DNA from: a virus
Taxonomy: Duplodnaviria; Heunggongvirae; Uroviricota; Caudoviricetes
Length of the DNA stretch: 64,000 bases
Strand: one strand, 5' to 3'
IMG/VR virus record: IMGVR_UViG_3300032220_000751
In this document: positions 4,080 through 10,573 of the stretch, in pieces
Layout of the letters: every line of letters starts with the position of its first letter
Numbering within the stretch: position 1 is the stretch's first letter
Position numbers and translations under genes: made by a program
The notes under the pieces: generated by a model
The model's database searches: none
The model's input: the letters and a program-made list of their open reading frames with translations, nothing else
Told to the model about the DNA's origin: nothing

Positions 4080-4985
4080 ATGACATTCCCCGCACTCGAT
4101 GATATCGTCATCGATCACCCGATCAAACATCCAGGTTTCATCCTGGCAGTTGAAGACGAAGCACTCGGCAAAGAAATCCTGTCGAACTACGGCCGCAAGT
4201 ACACGCACGTCAGCGACACCTTGTGGGCAGACGGTTCTTCCCAACAGATCGTGCATGTGAATGACTTCCAGCACTTCTTCCAGTTCCTGAGCGAGAACCT
4301 GATCATCGCTCAGCGCGCTCAACTGGAGAAGAACTTCAAGTATCGTCAGCTGCTGCCGTACGCTCCGGTGATCCGTAATGGTGCTCCCGACATTACCAAT
4401 CTCGATACCGTGGAAGTGCTGACCTACGCTCGTCTGAAGGGTGGTGGTGAACCCGGTCTGCATGACAAGGAATCCATCGGTTTCGGCGGACATCTGGATA
4501 TCTCTGACATCGTCTACAACGACGCTGGACGCAATGTCCCGAATCTGCTGGCTACCATCATGGCTAACTTGCGCCGTGAGGTTCTGTCGGAAGAACTGCG
4601 TCTGATCTATCCGGAAGGTTGCGAGGAAAATATCAACCTCGGCTTCACTGGCATGATCCTGCTGGAGCGCAATGAAGCCGTCGGTCTGGTGCACTTGGGT
4701 CTGGTCTTCATGGTGACCTGCCCGGCAAACATGGGCGCAGAAACCCCGGAAGTCAACCAGATCGGTCTGTTGGGCTGGAATACCTTCGAGCATCTGCAAG
4801 CCAATCATCCGAAGCTGGAAGGCTGGTCGCGTGCGCTCGTGGACTATCTGGGCAACAAAGCTCGTGTGGAACGTGAAGAACGTCTGAACAAGCCTCAGCC
4901 TGACGGCAACGATCCAGATCCCAAGGGTGAAAGTGATTTGCCGCGCAATTATGGCGGCAGTGGTGGTGCGGGTATTTCTGAGTAA
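4080..4985 (+). CDS. NUDIX-family phosphoesterase (COG4112/YmaB-like)
   Basis: RQLLPY...RLKGGGEPGLH..SIGFGGH...RREVLSEEL...NEAVGLVHLGLV signature. Confidence 0.8.
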   Translation: MTFPALDDIVIDHPIKHPGFILAVEDEALGKEILSNYGRKYTHVSDTLWADGSSQQIVHVNDFQHFFQFLSENLIIAQRAQLEKNFKYRQLLPYAPVIRNGAPDITNLDTVEVLTYARLKGGGEPGLHDKESIGFGGHLDISDIVYNDAGRNVPNLLATIMANLRREVLSEELRLIYPEGCEENINLGFTGMILLERNEAVGLVHLGLVFMVTCPANMGAETPEVNQIGLLGWNTFEHLQANHPKLEGWSRALVDYLGNKARVEREERLNKPQPDGNDPDPKGESDLPRNYGGSGGAGISE

Positions 4986-4997
4986 TCAGAAATAGGC

Positions 4998-5040
4998 GGC
5001 ATAGACGGGATGGGGTGATGCCCATCCCGTCGTTTTATGT
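4998..5040 (+). terminator. GGCATA-hairpin-TTATG terminator-like element
   Basis: 11-bp stem GACGGGATGGG/CCCATCCCGTC, then GTTTTATG. Confidence 0.7.
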
Positions 5041-5083
5041 TGCTTATTTTTTGAAGTACTCCATCACTTAAAGAGGTAATCTA

Positions 5084-5386
5084 ATGGCGATCCAACAAGT
5101 GCTGTCACTGCGCATCCATTTCACTGACGAATTGTTCAATGTGGATGAAAGTAAGATTACCCGAGAGATGAAGGTCCATGAAACCGTCATCAATCTGACT
5201 AAACTCGATATGCGTCCAGAGGCCATCAGTACTGAGAATGATGGTGCATTGGAAGACATCTCTGATGAATTAGCAGATGAGATAGACGGCGTGATACAGG
5301 CCCGCTTCTTTGTAACGAACCCTCTGTACTTTACAGATGAATTCGAGTTGGGAACCGAATATCTGGGAGTGCATACTCTCCATTAA
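5084..5386 (+). CDS. Acidic hypothetical protein
   Basis: GAGGT RBS, 100 aa. Confidence 0.75.
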   Translation: MAIQQVLSLRIHFTDELFNVDESKITREMKVHETVINLTKLDMRPEAISTENDGALEDISDELADEIDGVIQARFFVTNPLYFTDEFELGTEYLGVHTLH

Positions 5387-5396
5387 TGGGAAACGA

Positions 5397-6767
5397 ATGG
5401 AACATTCGAATAAATTAGTAGTACTGTATCACCGCAATTGTGCCGATGGTTTTGCAGCTGCCTGGGTAGCTTTGCAAGCTGAAGCTGTCTCGCGTGGGAT
5501 TGATACAGTAGAAGAGTTGATGGTCCCCGGTAGTTCTGTGATTGCTACTCCTGTTGAATACGACATTCATCAAGAGGATTTAATTGAGATCTGCCGGGAT
5601 GCACGTGTTTACGTTGTTGATTACTGCTTTGCACCTAGCCAGACTACTCAGATCGCTAAGGTAGCTAAGTCTGTAGTGGTGTTAGATCACCATAAGACTG
5701 CTATCGAAAAGATGGCTGGTTATAAGCACCCCAACGTCAAGCTGTATTTCGATCAGTCTTATTCAGGTGCTGGCCTGGCATGGAAACACTTCTTCGGTGA
5801 CCAGAAGATTCCAACCCTGTTGACATACTTGCAGGATTACGATCTGTGGACTAAACAGTATCCACAGTCGATGCCATTGGTACGTGGTATGCAGCACATG
5901 CGCATTCACGATCGTCAGGATTGGCGTGCCTTCGACGTCTTGACTCGTAATGAGGATGCGATTGCTGAAGTCATCATGACTGGCCAGACTGCATTGGAAG
6001 TCGAGCAAAGCATCATTGATGATGCTATTCGTGAATCCATGGTCACCGGTGTGAAGATCAATGGCGTTGAAGGTGGCGTCTTACTGAATCTGCCTTACCG
6101 TATGTCCAATATGGTAGGTGACACGTTAAACGGTAAGACCGATGAAATCAAATTCACCTGCGTCTACGATTATGTCAATCCGGAACCCAGTTACCCAGCT
6201 GGTTATATCCGACTGTCCTTCCGTTCGAAACGCGGTAGTGATATCGATCTGACCAAGATGCTGAAGAAGTTTGGTGGTGGTGGTCATGAGTCTTCATCTG
6301 GTCTGAAGATCTGTCGTATGCAGTACTACACGATCGAAGACTTCCTGCGCTTGAATAAGGAAGAGAAGATTAGCAATCGAAAGCATATCGGTAATCTGAA
6401 AGAGTTCTACCAATACGTGACCGATCAGATCTACCTCTTCCAAGAATCGGTGGCGACTCTTTTGTCTGACGGTATTCCTTACCAGAAGACCGCTGCAGAT
6501 ATCGCCAAGATGTATCAGCAAAATGTCGGCGTTCTTGAAAGTATGATGATGTTCCATACCGACAAGAACTGGAGCAAGTACGAACCACAAGTCACTAAGT
6601 TGATTAATGCATTATCCGTAATTTATACCGTACACACTCACTTGTATGTTGGTGTAAATGCAGCCAAAGGGATGGTGCAAAAAGCATCTGATTACTTCAA
6701 GAGTGATGAGTTCGATGACCTCTTAAAGAAGTTCTGGGTGGATGTACGGACGTGGGATAGTCCGTAA
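5397..6767 (+). CDS. DHH/DHHA1-family phosphoesterase with C-terminal helical extension
   Basis: YHRNCADG, VVDY, VLDHHKT, SGAGLAW, QDYDLW, SFRS, FGGGGH motifs; start set at ATG 5397. Confidence 0.85.
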   Translation: MEHSNKLVVLYHRNCADGFAAAWVALQAEAVSRGIDTVEELMVPGSSVIATPVEYDIHQEDLIEICRDARVYVVDYCFAPSQTTQIAKVAKSVVVLDHHKTAIEKMAGYKHPNVKLYFDQSYSGAGLAWKHFFGDQKIPTLLTYLQDYDLWTKQYPQSMPLVRGMQHMRIHDRQDWRAFDVLTRNEDAIAEVIMTGQTALEVEQSIIDDAIRESMVTGVKINGVEGGVLLNLPYRMSNMVGDTLNGKTDEIKFTCVYDYVNPEPSYPAGYIRLSFRSKRGSDIDLTKMLKKFGGGGHESSSGLKICRMQYYTIEDFLRLNKEEKISNRKHIGNLKEFYQYVTDQIYLFQESVATLLSDGIPYQKTAADIAKMYQQNVGVLESMMMFHTDKNWSKYEPQVTKLINALSVIYTVHTHLYVGVNAAKGMVQKASDYFKSDEFDDLLKKFWVDVRTWDSP

Positions 6768-6792
6768 ATCGCATTCAAAATAAAGTGAGATC

Positions 6793-6858
6793 CATATCAC
6801 TAGAGTGTAGTAGGTAGAAGAAAAGAATCTTCATCCAGCTACACTCTAGTGATTTTTT
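6793..6858 (+). promoter_or_regulatory. Early-promoter motif embedded in a 15-bp terminator-like hairpin
   Basis: CATATCACTA 6793-6802; ATCACTAGAGTGTAG (6796-6810) / CTACACTCTAGTGAT (6839-6853) followed by T-tract. Confidence 0.65.
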
Positions 6859-6938
6859 ACTGGGGCTCTACATCGTGTAGAGAGTAGGATCTCTATCAAG
6901 TATCAATTTTAAACTTCATAATCAAAAGGATAAGAAAC

Positions 6939-7595
6939 ATGGCTGTGCAAGAAATCTCCATCAACCGGGCTCTGACTACTGTCAAGAACCTGAAGAAAGA
7001 AATCGAAGAATACTTCAACGAGCCGCGCATCTTCGTGATCGCTCTGCAAGGTACGGAAGACCGCGTGGTCGCACACGGCTTCGACAAAGCGTACATGGAA
7101 AAGCAGATGCAATCGGACTACGACAGCTACATCAACAAGCTGGCGCGTTACGATGCACTGAAGGCCGCGATCGTCAAGTCCAACGCTGAAACCAAGGTCT
7201 CCATCAACGGCCAAGAATACACGGTTGCCGCTGCTGTCGAACTGAAGGCCACGGTCAAGTTCAAGGAAACCCTGCTGACGCACTGGAAGAAGCAGATGGC
7301 TACGATCTCCAAGGTCGTCTCCGATGCCAATGCCAAGCTGGAATCCACGCTCAAGACCGACATCGACAACATCAACAAGTCCAGGACCGAAGCCGACGGC
7401 GACTCTGCCCAGGAATACATCGCCGCCCTGACTCGTCTGAACACCGAGCGCTACACGGTCAAGGTGCACGACTACCTGCAGCTGGCAACCAAGATCAAGG
7501 AACTGGAAAACGAGATCCGCACCATCAACGAAGAACTGGACTGGGCACTGTCCGATTCGAACATGAAGACCCTGATCTCTGTCGATCTGGGTTAA
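6939..7595 (+). CDS. DIP1984/DUF6847-like all-helical protein
   Basis: ALTTVKNLKKEI...LKAAIVKSNAETKVSINGQEYTVAAAV...LENEIRTINEELDWALSDSNMKTLISV pattern recalled for this family; codon bias as strong as the capsid gene. Confidence 0.55.
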   Translation: MAVQEISINRALTTVKNLKKEIEEYFNEPRIFVIALQGTEDRVVAHGFDKAYMEKQMQSDYDSYINKLARYDALKAAIVKSNAETKVSINGQEYTVAAAVELKATVKFKETLLTHWKKQMATISKVVSDANAKLESTLKTDIDNINKSRTEADGDSAQEYIAALTRLNTERYTVKVHDYLQLATKIKELENEIRTINEELDWALSDSNMKTLISVDLG

Positions 7596-7720
7596 GTCTC
7601 ATCGCTTGAAATAATCCCTGTGAATTGGTGTGCATGAAGTTAGCAAACCTTATTCACCTATACGGCCTGTAGGTAAAGTAATCTGGCCAACCAACCAACT
7701 ATCTTTTGCGAAGATACTTG

Positions 7721-7793
7721 GTTCCATTAGCTCACTTGGTAGAGCAACAGACCAATAATCTGTAGGTCGCCGGTTCGATTCCGGTATGGAACC
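7721..7793 (+). tRNA. Atypical tRNA-like gene, anticodon AAT (nominally Ile), probably degenerate
   Basis: Acceptor GTTCCAT/ATGGAAC, D stem GCTC/GAGC, anticodon stem ACAGA/TCTGT with loop CCAATAA, T arm GCCGG-TTCGATT-CCGGT; C33, C15 and no encoded CCA. Confidence 0.7.
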
Positions 7794-7815
7794 CCTATAC
7801 TAGCAGTAACCCCTC

Positions 7816-7900
7816 AAAGGTTAAAGCTTTAAAGGTCAAGTTTCAAAGATCTAAAGTTCATCTACCTTAAAGCTCAATGGTTAAAGCTTGTAGTTAAAAG
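7816..7900 (+). repeat. AAAG heptad-like repeat array
   Basis: AAAG at 7816, 7823, 7831, 7845, 7853, 7869, 7883, 7897 plus in-register variants (CAAG, AATG, GTAG); period 7-8 nt. Confidence 0.8.
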
Positions 7901-7958
7901 CTCTTGTAAGTCCACATCAAAAGCGCGTTCGAAAGAACTAGGTGAGAGTAAGCACCGA

Positions 7959-8122
7959 GCTACGCGTGTGGCAATGTACAGCGAGTCACAGGGACTCCGA
8001 ATTCGTAGTAGCAGTAAACGTGCCGTGTATCACGTCTGCCTATCGGCAATACATGTTGGACCTGGTCCTGCGTCTGGGCGGCCTATCGGCAACGCAACGG
8101 GTGAGATCGAAAGGTCTCACCC
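7959..8122 (+). ncRNA. Unassigned structured RNA with pseudoknot, 12-nt direct repeat and GNRA hairpin
   Basis: ACGTG/CACGT stem whose loop CGTGTAT (8024-30) pairs with ATACATG (8049-55); GCCTATCGGCAA at 8038-49 and 8081-92; GGGTGAGATC-GAAA-GGTCTCACCC 8099-8122. Confidence 0.45.
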
Positions 8123-8134
8123 AATCCCCATATA

Positions 8135-8712
8135 GCCAGGGTGGTGAAATCGGTAGACACAGCGGACTTATCGTCATGATTAATTCATGATATTGAGCAC
8201 CTTCGAAAAATGAGTCAGTAGTCTAGTGAGACAGCTAGAGCAGCAGCTGGGCGTAACGACTCAATCGAAAGACGTTGGTGAATCCTTTCAAATTCGGCGA
8301 ACACTAAACTTGAATGAATTGTGCCTGTCCGGGAACAGGGGAACAACACTTTAGTCCATTGTAATAGATGGTAAAGGTGCCAAGCGAAAGCATCCCAATT
8401 CAAGCATGTCAACGCCGAGCCAAGCCTAAACAAGAGATTACAGACTAAGACACTCTTGGGATTGTGATGTGTGCCGAAGTCGTGAATGTTTACGAGTTAG
8501 GATAGGCATAATCCATGGAAGGTGTAGAGACTATACGGAAGGGATCTAAGTTTGGCGTCACACTCCTATGTCGGGGGCTTCGTTCAAATATGATCAAGAC
8601 ATAGTCCAGACCACAAACAGCGTAAGCTGGTAGTGAAAACTATAGTGGTAAGAAAATCCGCCGCGTCAGTCTAATAAACGGCGTACGGGTTCGAGTCCCG
8701 TGCCTGGCACCA
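8135..8712 (+). tRNA. trnL: tRNA-Leu(UAA) split by a group I intron (exons 8135-8169 and 8653-8712)
   Basis: 5' exon GCCAGGGTGGTGAAATCGGTAGACACAGCGGACTT, 3' exon AAAATCCGC...ACGGGTTCGAGTCCCGTGCCTGGCACCA; spliced anticodon loop CTTAAAA, long variable arm, encoded CCA. Confidence 0.9.
8170..8652 (+). mobile_element. ORF-less group I intron (trnL-type core)
   Basis: P1 GACTTA/TGAGTC with U8169.G8212 wobble; P3 CCTTTC/GGAAGG; P4 TTCGGCG/CGCCGAG; P7 GACTAT/ATAGTC (R GTAGAGACTATA, S AAGACATAGTCC); terminal G8652. Confidence 0.9.
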
Positions 8713-8734
8713 TGAATTGCAGTAGTAAAAAACA

Positions 8735-8809
8735 AGTTACTCATGCAAGGTTCGAGTCCTTGAATGTTCTGAACTTTAATCGGTCAGAAATCCATTGAGA
8801 TGAGTAACT
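8735..8809 (+). ncRNA. tRNA-like RNA with T arm first (permuted, YrlA-like topology)
   Basis: 10-bp terminal stem AGTTACTCAT/ATGAGTAACT, T arm CAAGG-TTCGAGT-CCTTG, second stem AATG.TTCTGA/TCAGAA.CATT; no clear D arm. Confidence 0.5.
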
Positions 8810-8979
8810 AACCTAGTTAAACTTGCGGTGTATATCTAGGAAACATGCTCCTCTGAGTTAAGGGTGTTGTAATCGCTAGGTTGGGTTTAATTTTCATGTT
8901 TATACCAATCGGTAATTACGAAACCGCCTGTTTTTTAACCGGTTTACTTTATTAGTGCACGCGCAACGTATCTACTCCA

Positions 8980-9250
8980 TGGATGTAAATAGATGGAGTT
9001 GGAGAAATTGCCTGGTAGTTTACAGCGAGGTTAGGTCTCAAGGAGGTAGATTCTTCCTGAGTACCTTGACATGAGGCACTAGATGAGCAGGGTCGACTTC
9101 TCCACGGAAGTTCCCTCTCGTGGGAATCTGTCATTAGACGTGCTGAACTAATAGAGTGAACTGTCATTGTGATGCTTACGGGGACATCGGTAAAAACCCC
9201 TGCAATTACCAAGTGAGGCTCGCATGAAGTAATTAGACCCGAAACATCCA
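8980..9250 (+). ncRNA. Unassigned structured RNA with hammerhead-like junction elements
   Basis: TGGATGT(A)/GAAACATCCA, GGGTC 9090-94/GACCC 9236-40 abutting GAAA; core strand noncanonical. Confidence 0.3.
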
Positions 9251-9329
9251 AACCAAACAGTTGTAGTTTTAACCATTTTTCTATTCTAGTCAAATAGTAA
9301 ACGTGGATACGTAAGAGCGAACGGGTACA

Positions 9330-9414
9330 GATCAATTAGCCGGACCGTCAATCCGGAGAGTCCTAATTGATCAACAAGGGGGAGGGTGATCCACTAACGC
9401 CGCTTCATCCTCCC
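9330..9414 (+). ncRNA. Two strong hairpins 5' of the hammerhead
   Basis: GATCAATTAG/CTAATTGATC (9330-39/9363-72) and GGGAGGGTGA/TCATCCTCCC (9380-89/9405-14). Confidence 0.45.
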
Positions 9415-9423
9415 ACTTCTAAA

Positions 9424-9499
9424 CATTACTGACGAGCCGTTCAAGTCGGCATCAATGGGTGAAAGGCCCACGAAATCACAGTAGCATCGTGATCTAATG
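9424..9499 (+). ncRNA. Type I hammerhead ribozyme with branched stem II
   Basis: Stem I CATTA/TAATG, CTGACGA 9429-35, G9436-C9471, GAAA 9472-75, stem III ATCAC/GTGAT, cleavage triplet AUC ending at 9494. Confidence 0.65.
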
Positions 9500-10063
9500 A
9501 AGGGTAAAGTCTTACCCTCTACTGACTGCGCTTAGGCGTGGAGGTCGGTGAAGTTCTTGGAGGAGCCGCGAGGACACTATTCGTGACTGGATAGTGAACT
9601 ACCCGGTAGCTTGCCAAGAATGGCTACGCGCGCTTTGAATTTAAGCCCTCTCTGATCAATTGGGTTTAATCCTCAGACCGCGAAGTTGTAAGCGAAAGAA
9701 TCCTTACTTAAGGGCCAACCGAAAGGAAGCCGCGATGGGTAGGAAACATGGAAGAGTCTCCTTACGGGAGGTGGCCCCTAAAGTAGTACCATGTTGTGGA
9801 ACGTGGTGTTACCGATTTTCTCTAAGCCTTGAGTGGCAAGTGCCATGAGGTAAAGCTTCCATGTTTTTGATTCTAGTAGTAAGCAGCCTATAGTTTGTCA
9901 TCGCTTGCGTTTTTCGATTGACGCGGGATCACGCCTCAGATGGGCAAGTGTTGGTTGAAGCACCTACCACTTGCTCATTTGCGGCCTGGCTACTCCCTGC
10001 TGGCATGTCTCGGTCTAGTCAACTGAGTCGTCCTAGTATAGTGACTGGATGGTAAACTATGGG
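9500..10063 (+). ncRNA. Large unassigned multi-domain structured RNA
   Basis: TTCTTGG/CCAAGAA 9554-9620; 11-bp 9744-54/9856-66; 16-bp 9887-9902/10048-63; 13-bp 9938-50/9968-80; no credible ORF. Confidence 0.55.
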
Positions 10064-10085
10064 ATGTTTATTTAATGCATATTAA

Positions 10086-10121
10086 CCACATGGGGCTAGT
10101 CCTCATGTGGGTTTTATGCCC
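10086..10121 (+). terminator. Terminator closing the RNA island
   Basis: CCACATG/CATGTGG stem then GTTTTATGCCC. Confidence 0.65.
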
Positions 10122-10150
10122 TTAGTTTTCTTTTTGTTAATAAAGGAAGT

Positions 10151-10573
10151 GTGATGGATAAGTCTAAGTTTCCTGATAACTTCGATTTGTTTACTACGAT
10201 TGGGACGGTACGTCATCCTCCCCAAAGTCGTACCTCAGTGCTGGTATATGGGTTAAATCGTGACATTAATGATGGGATAAAACTTATTGAATCCTTGGAT
10301 AGTAATGACATGGTTGCCAAAATCTTTAATGACAATGGCGCTTTAATCTGGGAAGTAACCTATAGCGATAAAGTGATCGACTGGGCTGTAGAGACGTTGA
10401 TTCACTTGAGGGTGGTTCTGGTCAGGTCGCAGAAGTACATTGATACTGCATTCCCAGTTCGTGAGCAAGTACTCATGGATATAGTGGACTTCTTAAGCCT
10501 GGTGGCGTTCCGACGCAAATTCAGTGTGGAGATCCACATCTGTAAACAAAGGAAGAATGATGTACGAGAATAA
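10151..10573 (+). CDS. Hypothetical protein
   Basis: AAGGA RBS, 140 aa. Confidence 0.7.
   Translation: MMDKSKFPDNFDLFTTIGTVRHPPQSRTSVLVYGLNRDINDGIKLIESLDSNDMVAKIFNDNGALIWEVTYSDKVIDWAVETLIHLRVVLVRSQKYIDTAFPVREQVLMDIVDFLSLVAFRRKFSVEIHICKQRKNDVRE

What the first reader, a model, noticed from the sequence alone, without database searches (positions are those of the whole stretch)
7596..10121. A 2.5-kb multi-RNA island in a jumbo phage: tRNA mimics, self-splicing tRNA, hammerhead and unknown large RNAs
In a genome packed with ORFs, this stretch has no credible protein gene. Instead it is tiled with RNA structure: an AAAG-repeat RNA with a nested tRNA-like unit, a pseudoknot RNA, intron-split tRNA-Leu, a T-arm-first mimic, a hammerhead and ~560 nt of multi-helix RNA. 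It lies between an insulated promoter (6793) and a terminator (10086). Inference: one transcript (DIP1984-like mRNA plus island) is cut into parts by RNase P/Z at the tRNA units, by group I splicing and by hammerhead cleavage. That would give a phage RNA-based system, for example anti-defence decoys for anticodon nucleases or an RNP scaffold. I do not recognise this combination as described.
Basis: partly seen in the sequence, partly recalled or inferred. Interest (0 to 1): 0.92.

Follow-up and report, generated by a model that had tools for sequence, protein, structure and literature searches.

The report
Jumbo-phage tRNA island with variant hammerhead
This gene-free 2.5 kb of a phiKZ-like jumbo phage is its tRNA/RNA-gene region: one odd tRNA-Ile, one tRNA-Leu split by a self-splicing intron, a hammerhead-type ribozyme of an undescribed shape shared with three other giant phages, and about 1.7 kb of folded-looking RNA with no known relatives.

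Summary
The core observation holds. Window 7596-10150 has no credible ORF under four genetic codes. It contains:
- a true tRNA-Ile(AAU);
- a tRNA-Leu(UAA) split after U34 by a 483-nt ORF-less group I intron, at the classical CUU/a...g/AAAA site;
- a hammerhead-type motif at 9424-9499, predicted to cut after C9494.

The hammerhead is the main gain of this follow-up. Rfam does not score it. Pattern scans found the same variant in three other giant-phage lineages, one copy per genome, always inside a tRNA island. In three of the four sequences stems I and III covary without a mismatch; the T-loop-like hairpin IIa covaries in all four. The stem II position holds two hairpins, one with a T-loop-like loop and one invariant (GGGUGAAAGGCCC).

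The other segments have no homologues anywhere I could search. This covers the AAAG repeat, the "T-arm-first" element, 8831-9290, 9495-9862 and 9880-10085. Only 9880-10121 is strikingly stable (z -6.8).

Not supported or untested: the nested tRNA-in-RNA model, the pseudoknot RNA, the "DIP1984-like" label, a single transcript, and any anti-defence role.

This scan has noted similar phage RNA islands on other DNA. Verdict: real and interesting, a new variant of known kinds; the proposed "system" remains conjecture.

The parts
6939..7595 (+). 218-aa protein gene directly upstream (context). It belongs to phrog_1491, not DIP1984.
   Evidence: PHROGs E 7e-42 and no NCBIfam DIP1984 match. Homologues at 28-33% identity lie inside tRNA arrays of other phages.
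7656..7674 (+). 7-bp hairpin in the tRNA-Ile leader
   Evidence: A7656-U7674 becomes G-C in a ~95% identical relative from run X5. See the permutation test.
7700..7716 (+). 6-7-bp hairpin 4 nt before tRNA-Ile
   Evidence: U7704-A7712 becomes A-U in the X5 relative. Two compensated helices of 7 bp or more: P 0.003 or lower under random placement of the changes.
7721..7795 (+). tRNA-Ile, anticodon AAU, anticodon loop C32 C33 A34 A35 U36; 3' end reads CCU rather than CCA
   Evidence: ARAGORN; Rfam tRNA 62.7 bits. The X5 relative has U32 and G34, i.e. anticodon GAU.
7815..7886 (+). YAAAG repeat: 7 copies spaced 7-16 nt, including three TTAAAGCT words
   Evidence: Genome-wide maximum; 0.26 expected per 96 nt. 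Repeat family D6. Tandem Repeats Finder finds no regular array.
7900..7986 (+). Helix-closed unit of about 87 nt
   Evidence: Three changes in the X5 relative (7901, 7979, 7981) all keep the closing helix paired.
8099..8122 (+). 10-bp hairpin with a GAAA loop, 12 nt before tRNA-Leu
   Evidence: Sequence; MFE fold; the 8010-8134 segment has z -2.0.
8135..8169 (+). tRNA-Leu(UAA) 5' exon, ending at U34
   Evidence: ARAGORN intron mode and in-silico splicing.
8170..8652 (+). ORF-less group I intron of 483 nt. GACUU/GAGUC (8213-8217) can form P1 with a U.G at the splice site. The last base is G8652. Three peripheral expansions lie at about 8308-8405, 8426-8517 and 8539-8595.
   Evidence: Rfam RF00028, 39 bits, E 8e-8. 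Environmental intron relatives skip exactly these three stretches (table 5). The P1 pairing is read from the sequence.
8653..8712 (+). tRNA-Leu 3' exon with a long variable arm and an encoded CCA
8735..8812 (+). Three-way-junction element: a 10-bp closing stem, a 5-bp hairpin whose loop UUCGAGU is identical to the tRNA-Leu T-loop, and a second long hairpin
   Evidence: MFE fold; z -2.1; T-loop hairpin census. No homologue found.
8831..9290 (+). Orphan segment predicted to be multi-helical
   Evidence: z -3.1 on +, -1.7 on -. No Rfam match and no BLAST match.
9424..9499 (+). Variant type I hammerhead. Order of parts: stem I CAUUA/UAAUG; core CUGACGA; hairpin IIa GCCG-UUCAAGU-CGGC; linker; invariant GGGUGAAAGGCCC; AC; GAAA; stem III AUCAC/GUGAU; C17. 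Predicted cleavage lies between 9494 and 9495.
   Evidence: Descriptor statistics. Homologues with covarying stems. A covariance model built without this sequence scores it at 41-43 bits, E 2e-10.
9495..9862 (+). RNA downstream of the ribozyme, with a terminator-like hairpin at 9783-9812
   Evidence: z -3.1; terminator scan. Shares a 19-nt word with 10041-10059.
9880..10085 (+). Very stable multi-helix unit closed by a helix of about 16 bp (about 9884-9899 with 10046-10062)
   Evidence: 9880-10121 has z -6.8 on + against -3.5 on -; fold.
10086..10114 (+). Intrinsic-terminator-like hairpin and U-rich tail that ends the island

Best explanation
WHAT IT IS. The stretch is the tRNA and non-coding-RNA gene region of an uncultured 310-kb phiKZ-type jumbo phage. 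All elements lie on the + strand. It holds four kinds of thing:
1. A tRNA-Ile with an unusual anticodon loop (C32 C33 A34).
2. A tRNA-Leu(UAA) that can only mature after a 483-nt IC3-type group I intron splices itself out at the classical U34/A35 site.
3. A self-cleaving ribozyme of the hammerhead class in a previously unlisted architecture. The usual stem II is replaced by a 4-bp hairpin with a T-loop-like UUCAAGU loop, a variable linker and an invariant GGGUGAAAGGCCC hairpin.
4. Several structured RNA segments with no known relatives.

LIKELY WORKFLOW.
- Rightward transcription produces one or a few precursors.
- Host RNase P and 3' trimming enzymes release the tRNAs.
- The intron splices itself out.
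- The ribozyme cuts after C9494. This separates the upstream RNA (about 8713-9494, ending in a 2',3'-cyclic phosphate) from a downstream RNA that starts at U9495 with a 5'-OH.
- Transcription ends at the 10086-10114 hairpin, or partly at 9783-9812.

SHOWN: the identity of the two tRNAs, the intron and its site, the conservation and covariation of the ribozyme motif, and its constant placement in tRNA islands.

INFERRED: catalytic activity, co-transcription, and any function of the orphan RNAs. The closest analogy for these is the large phage RNAs that sit beside tRNA genes.
For: NON-CODING.

tRNAs AND INTRON. The splice setting is identical to the classical Leu.3Ug type, CUU/a...g/AAAA (bioRxiv 10.1101/2020.01.27.920355, read).

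PHAGE TYPE: PhiKZ_MCP Pfam match, E 5e-191. The nearest cultured relative is Burkholderia phage FLC9, with 45.6% capsid identity.

POSITION EQUALS A tRNA CLUSTER: homologues of the upstream protein lie among 18-19 tRNAs in L002 and L006. L002 also has a group I intron in tRNA-Arg.

HAMMERHEAD:
- It is the unique descriptor hit in the genome; 0.05 are expected.
- Family members are L027/G001, L036-L039-L044/G002-G004 and L037/G003.
- Stem I reads CAUUA/UAAUG, GCGGA/UCCGC and UCGCA/UGCGA.
- Stem III reads AUCAC/GUGAU against ACUC/GAGU.
- The closing pair of IIa is G-C, G-C, A-U, C-G.
- The core C3-A9, G12-A14, A15.1-U16.1 and H17 are kept in all members.
- A model built from L027 and L036 alone finds the window element at E 2e-10. 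It finds exactly one copy in each of five phage records.
- Every copy lies 0.5-1.3 kb from tRNA genes on the same strand.

STRUCTURE ELSEWHERE: compensatory changes in a ~95% identical relative; z -6.8 for 9880-10121; 4 of the genome's 11 T-loop-type hairpins lie in the island.

TERMINATOR.
Against: - No RNA evidence: no listed run is reliably RNA, and the laid data were contigs.
- Rfam hammerhead models do not score the motif at E up to 10.
- The extra hairpin lies between stem II and G12, where canonical hammerheads have no insertion, so activity is not assured.
- In L037 stem I is out of register by one base.
- The intron scores below Rfam's gathering threshold (39 against 50 bits).
- The orphan segments have no homologue in GenBank phages, IMG/VR, JGI metagenomes or GTDB genomes at the sensitivity available.
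- Most of their z-scores overlap the coding controls.
- An internal terminator-like hairpin and a promoter-like site argue against a single transcript.
Confidence: 0.7

Rival explanations
1. Decaying tRNA array. The position once held many tRNA genes, as in other phages with the same upstream protein. Only two tRNAs, an intron and a ribozyme remain functional. The remaining ~1.7 kb (AAAG repeat, T-arm-first element, 8831-9290, 9495-10085) would be degenerating remnants and spacer with no function of its own.
For: - Homologous positions in L002 and L006 hold 18-19 tRNAs, and FLC9 holds 11. This genome has only two.
- The T-arm-first element carries a T-loop identical to that of tRNA-Leu (family D1), as a duplicated fragment would.
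- The orphan parts have no homologues.
- Most z-scores are unremarkable.
Against: - 9880-10121 is far more stable than shuffles, and more so on the + strand (z -6.8 against -3.5).
- Compensatory changes occur in 7656-7674, 7700-7716 and the 7900-7986 helix.
- The YAAAG repeat is the genome's extreme.
- In L036 and G001 the same ribozyme is also followed by 0.65-1 kb of ORF-poor sequence before the next tRNA, of which only about 200 nt is alignable between the two.
- A 90% coding genome rarely keeps 1.7 kb of junk.
Confidence: 0.2
2. The island is an integrated RNA-based counter-defence system in which tRNA mimics and odd tRNAs act as decoys or replacements against host anticodon nucleases, or in which the large RNAs scaffold a ribonucleoprotein.
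For: - The tRNA-Ile has a non-standard anticodon loop (C33, A34), and the loop differs at two positions in a 95% identical relative.
- Phage tRNAs with anticodon-loop changes have been proposed to evade tRNA-targeting defences (PMC10264068, listed).
- T-loop hairpins are enriched in the island.
Against: - Nothing links the orphan RNAs to tRNA nucleases.
- The 'mimics' lack an acceptor/T-arm stacking topology like that of tRNA (reading).
- No RNA-repair or defence-related genes flank the island.
- No conservation of the proposed mimics outside this phage.
Confidence: 0.1
3. Part of the region acts at the DNA level. The YAAAG/TTAAAGCT repeat block (7815-7905) and the stop-rich words (TAGCAGTAA, TAGTAGTAA at 7801, 8009, 8721, 9874) would be protein-binding sites such as iterons, an origin or a regulatory array, rather than RNA features.
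For: - TTAAAGCTTTAA is a perfect 12-bp palindrome, and TTAAAGCT recurs three times.
- The repeat block folds no better than shuffles (7796-8005, z -0.4).
- TAG[CT]AGTAA occurs 3 times in the island out of 6 on the genome's + strand.
Against: - The block lies between two tRNA genes on the transcribed strand.
- The repeats are strand-asymmetric: 7 on +, at most 3 in any 96-nt window of the - strand.
- No GC-skew turn appears at the site.
Confidence: 0.1

Closest known systems
Hammerhead ribozyme, type I (Rfam RF00163; natural diversity in Perreault et al. 2011, PMC3088659)
   Same: - Full catalytic core: CUGANGA, GAAA, the A15.1-U16.1 pair and H17.
- Three-helix layout with an open stem I and a closed stem III.
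- Found in phage DNA, where hammerheads are common and are thought to process long transcripts.
   Different: - Between A9 and G12 there are two hairpins instead of one stem II. One is a 4-bp hairpin with a T-loop-like UUCAAGU loop. After a linker of 4-42 nt comes an invariant GGGUGAAAGGCCC hairpin and then AC.
- Rfam hammerhead models give no match at E up to 10.
- There is one copy per jumbo-phage genome, inside tRNA islands, rather than pairs flanking genes.
Classical bacterial tRNA-Leu(UAA) group I intron (subgroup IC3, 'Leu.3Ug'; Williams 2020, bioRxiv 10.1101/2020.01.27.920355)
   Same: - Same host tRNA and the same insertion point, CUU/a...g/AAAA.
- U at -1 and a terminal G.
- No ORF.
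- The core is alignable to Rfam RF00028 and to many environmental introns.
   Different: - It sits in a phage genome.
- It is 483 nt long because of three peripheral expansions of roughly 57-97 nt that its environmental relatives lack.
- It scores below Rfam's gathering threshold.
GOLLD and ROOL large phage/prophage RNAs (Rfam RF01998, RF03087)
   Same: Several hundred nucleotides of apparently structured non-coding RNA carried by phages next to tRNA genes, with function unknown.
   Different: - No sequence or structure match to either family at E up to 10.
- Here the RNA is preceded by a ribozyme.
- No multi-genome conservation has been shown yet.
tRNA gene clusters of jumbo phages (for example Burkholderia phage FLC9, Ralstonia phages FLC1-1B and RP12)
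   Same: - Same kind of genome region.
- The same strand logic.
- Proximity to the dCTP deaminase gene.
   Different: - Those clusters are mostly plain tRNAs (11, 6 and 2 matches).
- They have no group I intron over threshold and no copy of the ribozyme or the orphan RNAs.

Membership tests
Hammerhead ribozyme | Conserved core C3 U4 G5 A6 N7 G8 A9 ... G12 A13 A14 | tested here: met
   CUGACGA and GAA are present in register in the window and in all three other family sequences.
Hammerhead ribozyme | Stems I and III flank the core, with an A15.1-U16.1 pair and a non-G at position 17 | tested here: met
   Stem I has 5 bp and stem III 4-5 bp, all Watson-Crick and covarying in the window, L027 and L036. 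H17 is C, A, C, A. In L037 stem I is shifted by one base.
Hammerhead ribozyme | A single stem II whose strands join A9 and G12 directly | tested here: not met
   Hairpin IIa starts right after A9. A linker of 4-42 nt, a second invariant hairpin and AC then precede G12. I therefore file it as a variant, not a canonical member.
Hammerhead ribozyme | Score over the threshold of a curated covariance model | tested here: not met
   No Rfam hammerhead match at E up to 10 in the window or at E up to 1 in L027, L036 and L037.
Hammerhead ribozyme | Site-specific self-cleavage giving 2',3'-cyclic phosphate and 5'-OH ends | not testable with these tools
   Needs an in-vitro transcription and cleavage assay, or end-specific RNA-seq.
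Group I intron (IC3, tRNA-Leu type) | Conserved catalytic core (P3-P9) recognised by a covariance model | tested here: inconclusive
   RF00028 aligns end to end (model positions 1-253) at 39 bits, E 8e-8 to 2e-9. This is below the gathering score of 50 because of long insertions.
Group I intron (IC3, tRNA-Leu type) | Insertion in the anticodon loop after U34, with U at -1 able to form U.G in P1 and a terminal G | tested here: met
   The exons join to a canonical tRNA-Leu(UAA). GACUU can pair with GAGUC at 8213-8217. G8652 precedes the 3' exon. The setting equals Leu.3Ug.
Group I intron (IC3, tRNA-Leu type) | Self-splicing with a guanosine cofactor | not testable with these tools
   Needs a splicing assay.
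tRNA | Cloverleaf with conserved D and T elements, over the Rfam and ARAGORN thresholds | tested here: met
   tRNA-Ile scores 62.7 bits against a threshold of 29. The spliced tRNA-Leu is called by ARAGORN. Caveat for tRNA-Ile: it has C33 instead of U33, A34, and no encoded CCA.
GOLLD / ROOL / other catalogued large RNAs | Match to the family covariance model | tested here: not met
   No match at E up to 10 anywhere in 7500-10250.
   No Pfam match and no such NCBIfam match. The protein matches phrog_1491 at E 7e-42.

The most novel reading that the evidence does not exclude
The hammerhead variant may be a tRNA-linked ribozyme class specific to jumbo phages. Its two-hairpin stem II domain (a T-loop hairpin plus an invariant GG-containing hairpin) would imitate the tRNA elbow. 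Cleavage, or its timing, would then be coupled to elbow-binding tRNA-processing factors. It would release a new class of large structured phage RNA (here 9495-10085) whose role is comparable to GOLLD or ROOL.
Probability: 0.15. Interest if true: 0.85.

Novelty: new variant of a known kind. Interest (0 to 1): 0.62.

Why it matters
- Hammerheads are among the best-studied ribozymes, yet this form escapes the curated models. It places a T-loop hairpin and an invariant second hairpin where stem II should be. If it cleaves, it widens the known tolerance of the hammerhead core and gives a new search pattern.
- Its fixed position, one copy per genome inside the tRNA islands of at least two unrelated jumbo-phage lineages, points to a role in maturing tRNA and non-coding RNA transcripts. 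This is an almost unstudied layer of giant-phage biology.
- The phage tRNA-Leu with a classical bacterial-type group I intron documents movement of this intron type into phages.
- The orphan RNAs, above all 9880-10085, are concrete candidates for new large phage RNAs.

Tried and rejected
SEARCHES FOR RELATIVES OF THE ISLAND
- Flanking proteins in IMG/VR: no close relatives.
- BLAST of the island and its parts against GenBank phages: only tRNA and intron-core matches.
- nhmmer and blastn against the tRNA regions of FLC9, FLC1-1B and RP12, and against L002, L005 and L006: only tRNA and intron matches.
- Identical copies in L008-L012 carry no variation.
- Scan notes on look-alike stretches: none.

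SEQUENCING RUNS
- No RNA holder is listed. The four runs laid were contigs only, so they say nothing about expression, ends or strand.

PATTERN SCANS
- Relaxed hammerhead patterns in IMG/VR and GTDB genomes gave only chance matches beyond the four family sequences.
- In the metagenome scan only L044 is a true member.
- Scans for the 19-nt repeated word and for the T-arm-first hairpin in GTDB genomes: chance matches or nothing.

OTHER CHECKS
- Alternative genetic codes open no frame.
- The MAFFT alignment of the four ribozymes misaligned the 3' stems. The model-based alignment misplaced the window's stem III. Pair counts were therefore taken from a scripted parse and not from the count of structure pairs.
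- ARAGORN at lowered thresholds with mitochondrial models produced dozens of overlapping calls on both strands and was discarded.
- The stop-rich word TAGTAGTAA as a phage promoter: rejected, because elsewhere in the genome it sits at gene ends next to ribosome-binding sites.
- Global alignment of the post-ribozyme RNAs of G001 and L036 was uninformative beyond the first ~200 nt.


Full report
WHERE THE WINDOW LIES
The window is bases 67394-131393 of a 310,114-bp IMG/VR virus record with direct terminal repeats. The ORF at 43940-46183 matches the PhiKZ major capsid protein family at E 5e-191. The nearest cultured relatives by capsid are Burkholderia phage FLC9 (45.6% identity) and Ralstonia phages FLC1-1B, RP12 and RP31 (about 39%). 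It is therefore a distant phiKZ-type jumbo phage. Near-identical copies of the island occur in several ENA, JGI and Logan assemblies and in public metagenome runs.

IS THE STRETCH NON-CODING?
Yes. Between the stop of the 218-aa gene (7595) and the next gene (about 10151) the + strand has no ORF of 100 aa or more. The only larger frame is a TTG-started 127-aa ORF on the minus strand with no Pfam match. Reading TGA, TAG or TAA as sense opens nothing. My crude gene map puts the genome at about 90% coding, and this is its largest gene-poor stretch.

tRNA-Ile
ARAGORN and Rfam agree on a tRNA at 7721-7795 (62.7 bits). It is a normal cloverleaf, not a mimic. Its anticodon loop reads C32 C33 A34 A35 U36, and the 3' end reads CCU rather than CCA. 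A ~95% identical relative in a biofilm metagenome (run X5) has U32 and G34, which is the usual GAU anticodon. The loop has therefore changed recently.

tRNA-Leu AND ITS INTRON
- ARAGORN in intron mode calls tRNA-Leu(UAA) at 8135-8712 with a 483-nt intron after position 35 of the gene. Joining 8135-8169 to 8653-8712 gives a clean class II tRNA with CCA.
- Rfam's group I model aligns over its whole length at 39 bits (E 8e-8 in the region, 2e-9 in the genome search). This is below the gathering score of 50 because of long insertions.
- The splice setting is CUU/AUCG...UAAG/AAAA. This is the classical 'Leu.3Ug' setting of bacterial tRNA-Leu introns, all of subgroup IC3 (bioRxiv 10.1101/2020.01.27.920355).
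- From the sequence, exon GACUU can pair with GAGUC at 8213-8217 to form P1 with the U.G wobble. G8652 is the terminal G.
- Contigs from wastewater runs align to the intron core at 80-95% identity but skip 8308-8405, 8426-8517 and 8539-8595, with a few to about 30 other letters in their place (tables 5 and 5c). The phage intron is thus an ordinary core with three peripheral expansions and no ORF.
- A distant phage that shares the upstream protein (L002) carries a 212-nt group I intron in tRNA-Arg(UCU). Introns in phage tRNA arrays therefore recur.

THE HAMMERHEAD
I wrote a descriptor with these requirements:
- CUGANGA;
- a 10.1-11.1 pair;
- GAA;
- a stem III of at least 4 bp closed by A-U;
- a non-G at position 17;
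- a stem I of at least 4 bp directly adjacent to the core.

It hits the 620 kb of both strands once, at 9429-9494, with 5-bp stems I and III. In 400 second-order Markov genomes, hits of that quality number 0.0475 per genome. Rfam hammerhead models do not score it.

A pattern taken from the core plus the first hairpin found a second example in a 258-kb IMG/VR contig (L027). A scan for the shared 18-mer found more: L036, L038 and L039 (one sequence), L037 and L044. A scripted parse gives these parts:

| Part | window | L027 | L036 | L037 |
|---|---|---|---|---|
| Stem I | CAUUA/UAAUG | GCGGA/UCCGC | UCGCA/UGCGA | out of register by one base |
| Hairpin IIa stem | GCCG/CGGC | GUGG/CCAC | ACGG/CCGU | CCGG/CCGG |
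| Stem III | AUCAC/GUGAU | ACUC/GAGU | ACUC/GAGU | ACUC/GGGU |
| H17 | C | A | C | A |

- The IIa loop is always UUCAAGU.
- The linker is 4-42 nt long.
- GGGUGAAAGGCCC, AC and GAAA are invariant.
- About ten pairs covary with no mismatch in three sequences.
- A covariance model built from L027 and L036 alone finds the window element at 41-43 bits (E 2e-10) and L037 at 28 bits. It finds exactly one copy in each of the five phage records searched.
- G003 (L037) has a phiKZ-type capsid gene. The complete 258-kb G001 (L027) does not. The element therefore crosses lineages.
- Every copy lies 0.5-1.3 kb from tRNA genes on the same strand, inside an ORF-poor island.

It departs from the canonical form. 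The covariation shows that IIa is the helix attached to A9, and the second hairpin is an insertion before G12. Natural hammerheads can have a very short stem II, and they are frequent in prophages, where they are thought to cut long transcripts (PMC3088659). I found no description of this architecture, nor of hammerheads in jumbo phages, in the held library. Activity remains to be shown.

THE REST OF THE ISLAND
- Leader and spacer. In the X5 relative, 7656/7674 changes A-U to G-C and 7704/7712 changes U-A to A-U. Both lie in local 7-bp hairpins. With randomly placed changes, two such events in helices of 7 bp or more occur with P about 0.003 or less. The thresholds were chosen after seeing the data.
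- Three further changes keep the 7900-7908/7977-7986 helix paired.
- These local hairpins contradict the long-range helices that would nest the tRNA inside a larger RNA.
- The YAAAG repeat is real. There are 7 copies in 7815-7882, the genome maximum, against 0.26 expected. The block is not thermodynamically structured (z -0.4), so a protein-binding platform on RNA or DNA is as good a guess as any.
- The 'T-arm-first' element (8735-8812) folds as a three-way junction with a hairpin whose loop equals the tRNA-Leu T-loop. Its strand topology is not that of a tRNA acceptor/T-arm stack, and it has no homologue.
- T-loop-type hairpins are enriched: 4 of 11 in the genome lie in the island.
- The large segments 8831-9290 and 9495-9862 have z about -3.1 on the + strand and about -1.6 on the - strand. 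The coding controls reach -2.2, so this is suggestive only.
- 9880-10121 is different. It has z -6.8 on +, a closing helix of about 16 bp and a long internal hairpin, and it ends in the terminator-like hairpin at 10086-10110.
- None of these parts matches Rfam at E up to 10, GenBank phages, or the islands of the phages that share the ribozyme.

CONTEXT AND TRANSCRIPTION
- The upstream 218-aa protein is phrog_1491 (annotated 'tail fiber', probably loosely) and not DIP1984.
- Its homologues at 28-33% identity sit inside tRNA arrays of unrelated phages. The locus is therefore positionally a tRNA cluster.
It looks like the terminator of the preceding gene.
- Inside the island the scan lists a terminator-like hairpin at 9783-9812 and a sigma-70-like site at 9867-9894. 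PhiKZ-type phages use their own polymerases (established knowledge), so neither can be read with confidence.
- Whether there is one transcript or several remains open.

VERDICT
The functional story (decoys, scaffold, a single processed transcript) is untested. Earlier notes of this scan describe comparable islands in other jumbo phages: a hammerhead feeding an unknown RNA, an oversized intron and tRNA-shaped RNAs. I did not check those notes. They share no sequence with this window.

Noticed in passing
window 6939-7595; L002 8001-8642; L005 8001-8627; L006 8001-8633: The phrog_1491 protein family (about 210 aa, helical, annotated 'tail fiber') is repeatedly embedded in or next to tRNA arrays of unrelated phages. 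This suggests a tRNA- or RNA-related role rather than a tail function.
   Followed up: partly
L002 6849-7135: tRNA-Arg(UCU) with a 212-nt group I intron (Rfam 53.5 bits). It lies directly upstream of a T5orf172-domain gene in a phage tRNA array with 18 other tRNAs.
   Followed up: partly
L018 1946-2700 (Ralstonia phage FLC1-1B) and L019 (RP12): An ORF-poor stretch of about 0.8-1 kb near the tRNA cluster is conserved at 74% identity between the two phages and is unannotated. It is a possible non-coding RNA or a missed gene.
   Followed up: no
window 6794-6852: A very stable 15-bp hairpin with an inner hairpin and a T run (z about -10 in a 150-nt window). It looks like the terminator of the DHH-phosphoesterase-like gene at 5337-6767.
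   Followed up: partly
genome 257874-260344 (outside the window): ARAGORN in intron mode calls a tRNA-Met with a 2378-nt 'intron'. No group I match lies there in the genome-wide Rfam search, so the call is probably spurious.
   Followed up: partly
genome about 268234-269582 (window-relative 200841-202189): This is the second-largest gene-free gap of the genome (1349 nt) in my crude ORF map. I did not examine it.
   Followed up: no
window 9583-9601 and 10041-10059: A 19-nt word (GTGACTGGATRGTRAACTA, 17 of 19 identical) occurs in both the post-ribozyme RNA and the terminal stable unit. It could be a shared binding site or a duplication trace.
   Followed up: partly
L017 4591-4703; L019 4081-4188; LC819005.1 127192-127300: In FLC9, RP12 and FLC1-1B some Rfam tRNA matches are 108-113 nt long. 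These may be tRNAs with short inserts or unusual arms.
   Followed up: no
L055 7100-10320 (G001) and L036 minus strand, locus 4946-7726: Other jumbo phages with the same ribozyme also have ORF-poor tRNA islands of about 3 kb. In them 0.65-1 kb of unassigned sequence separates the ribozyme from the next tRNA. The first ~200 nt after the ribozyme is 63% identical between L027 and L036.
   Followed up: partly
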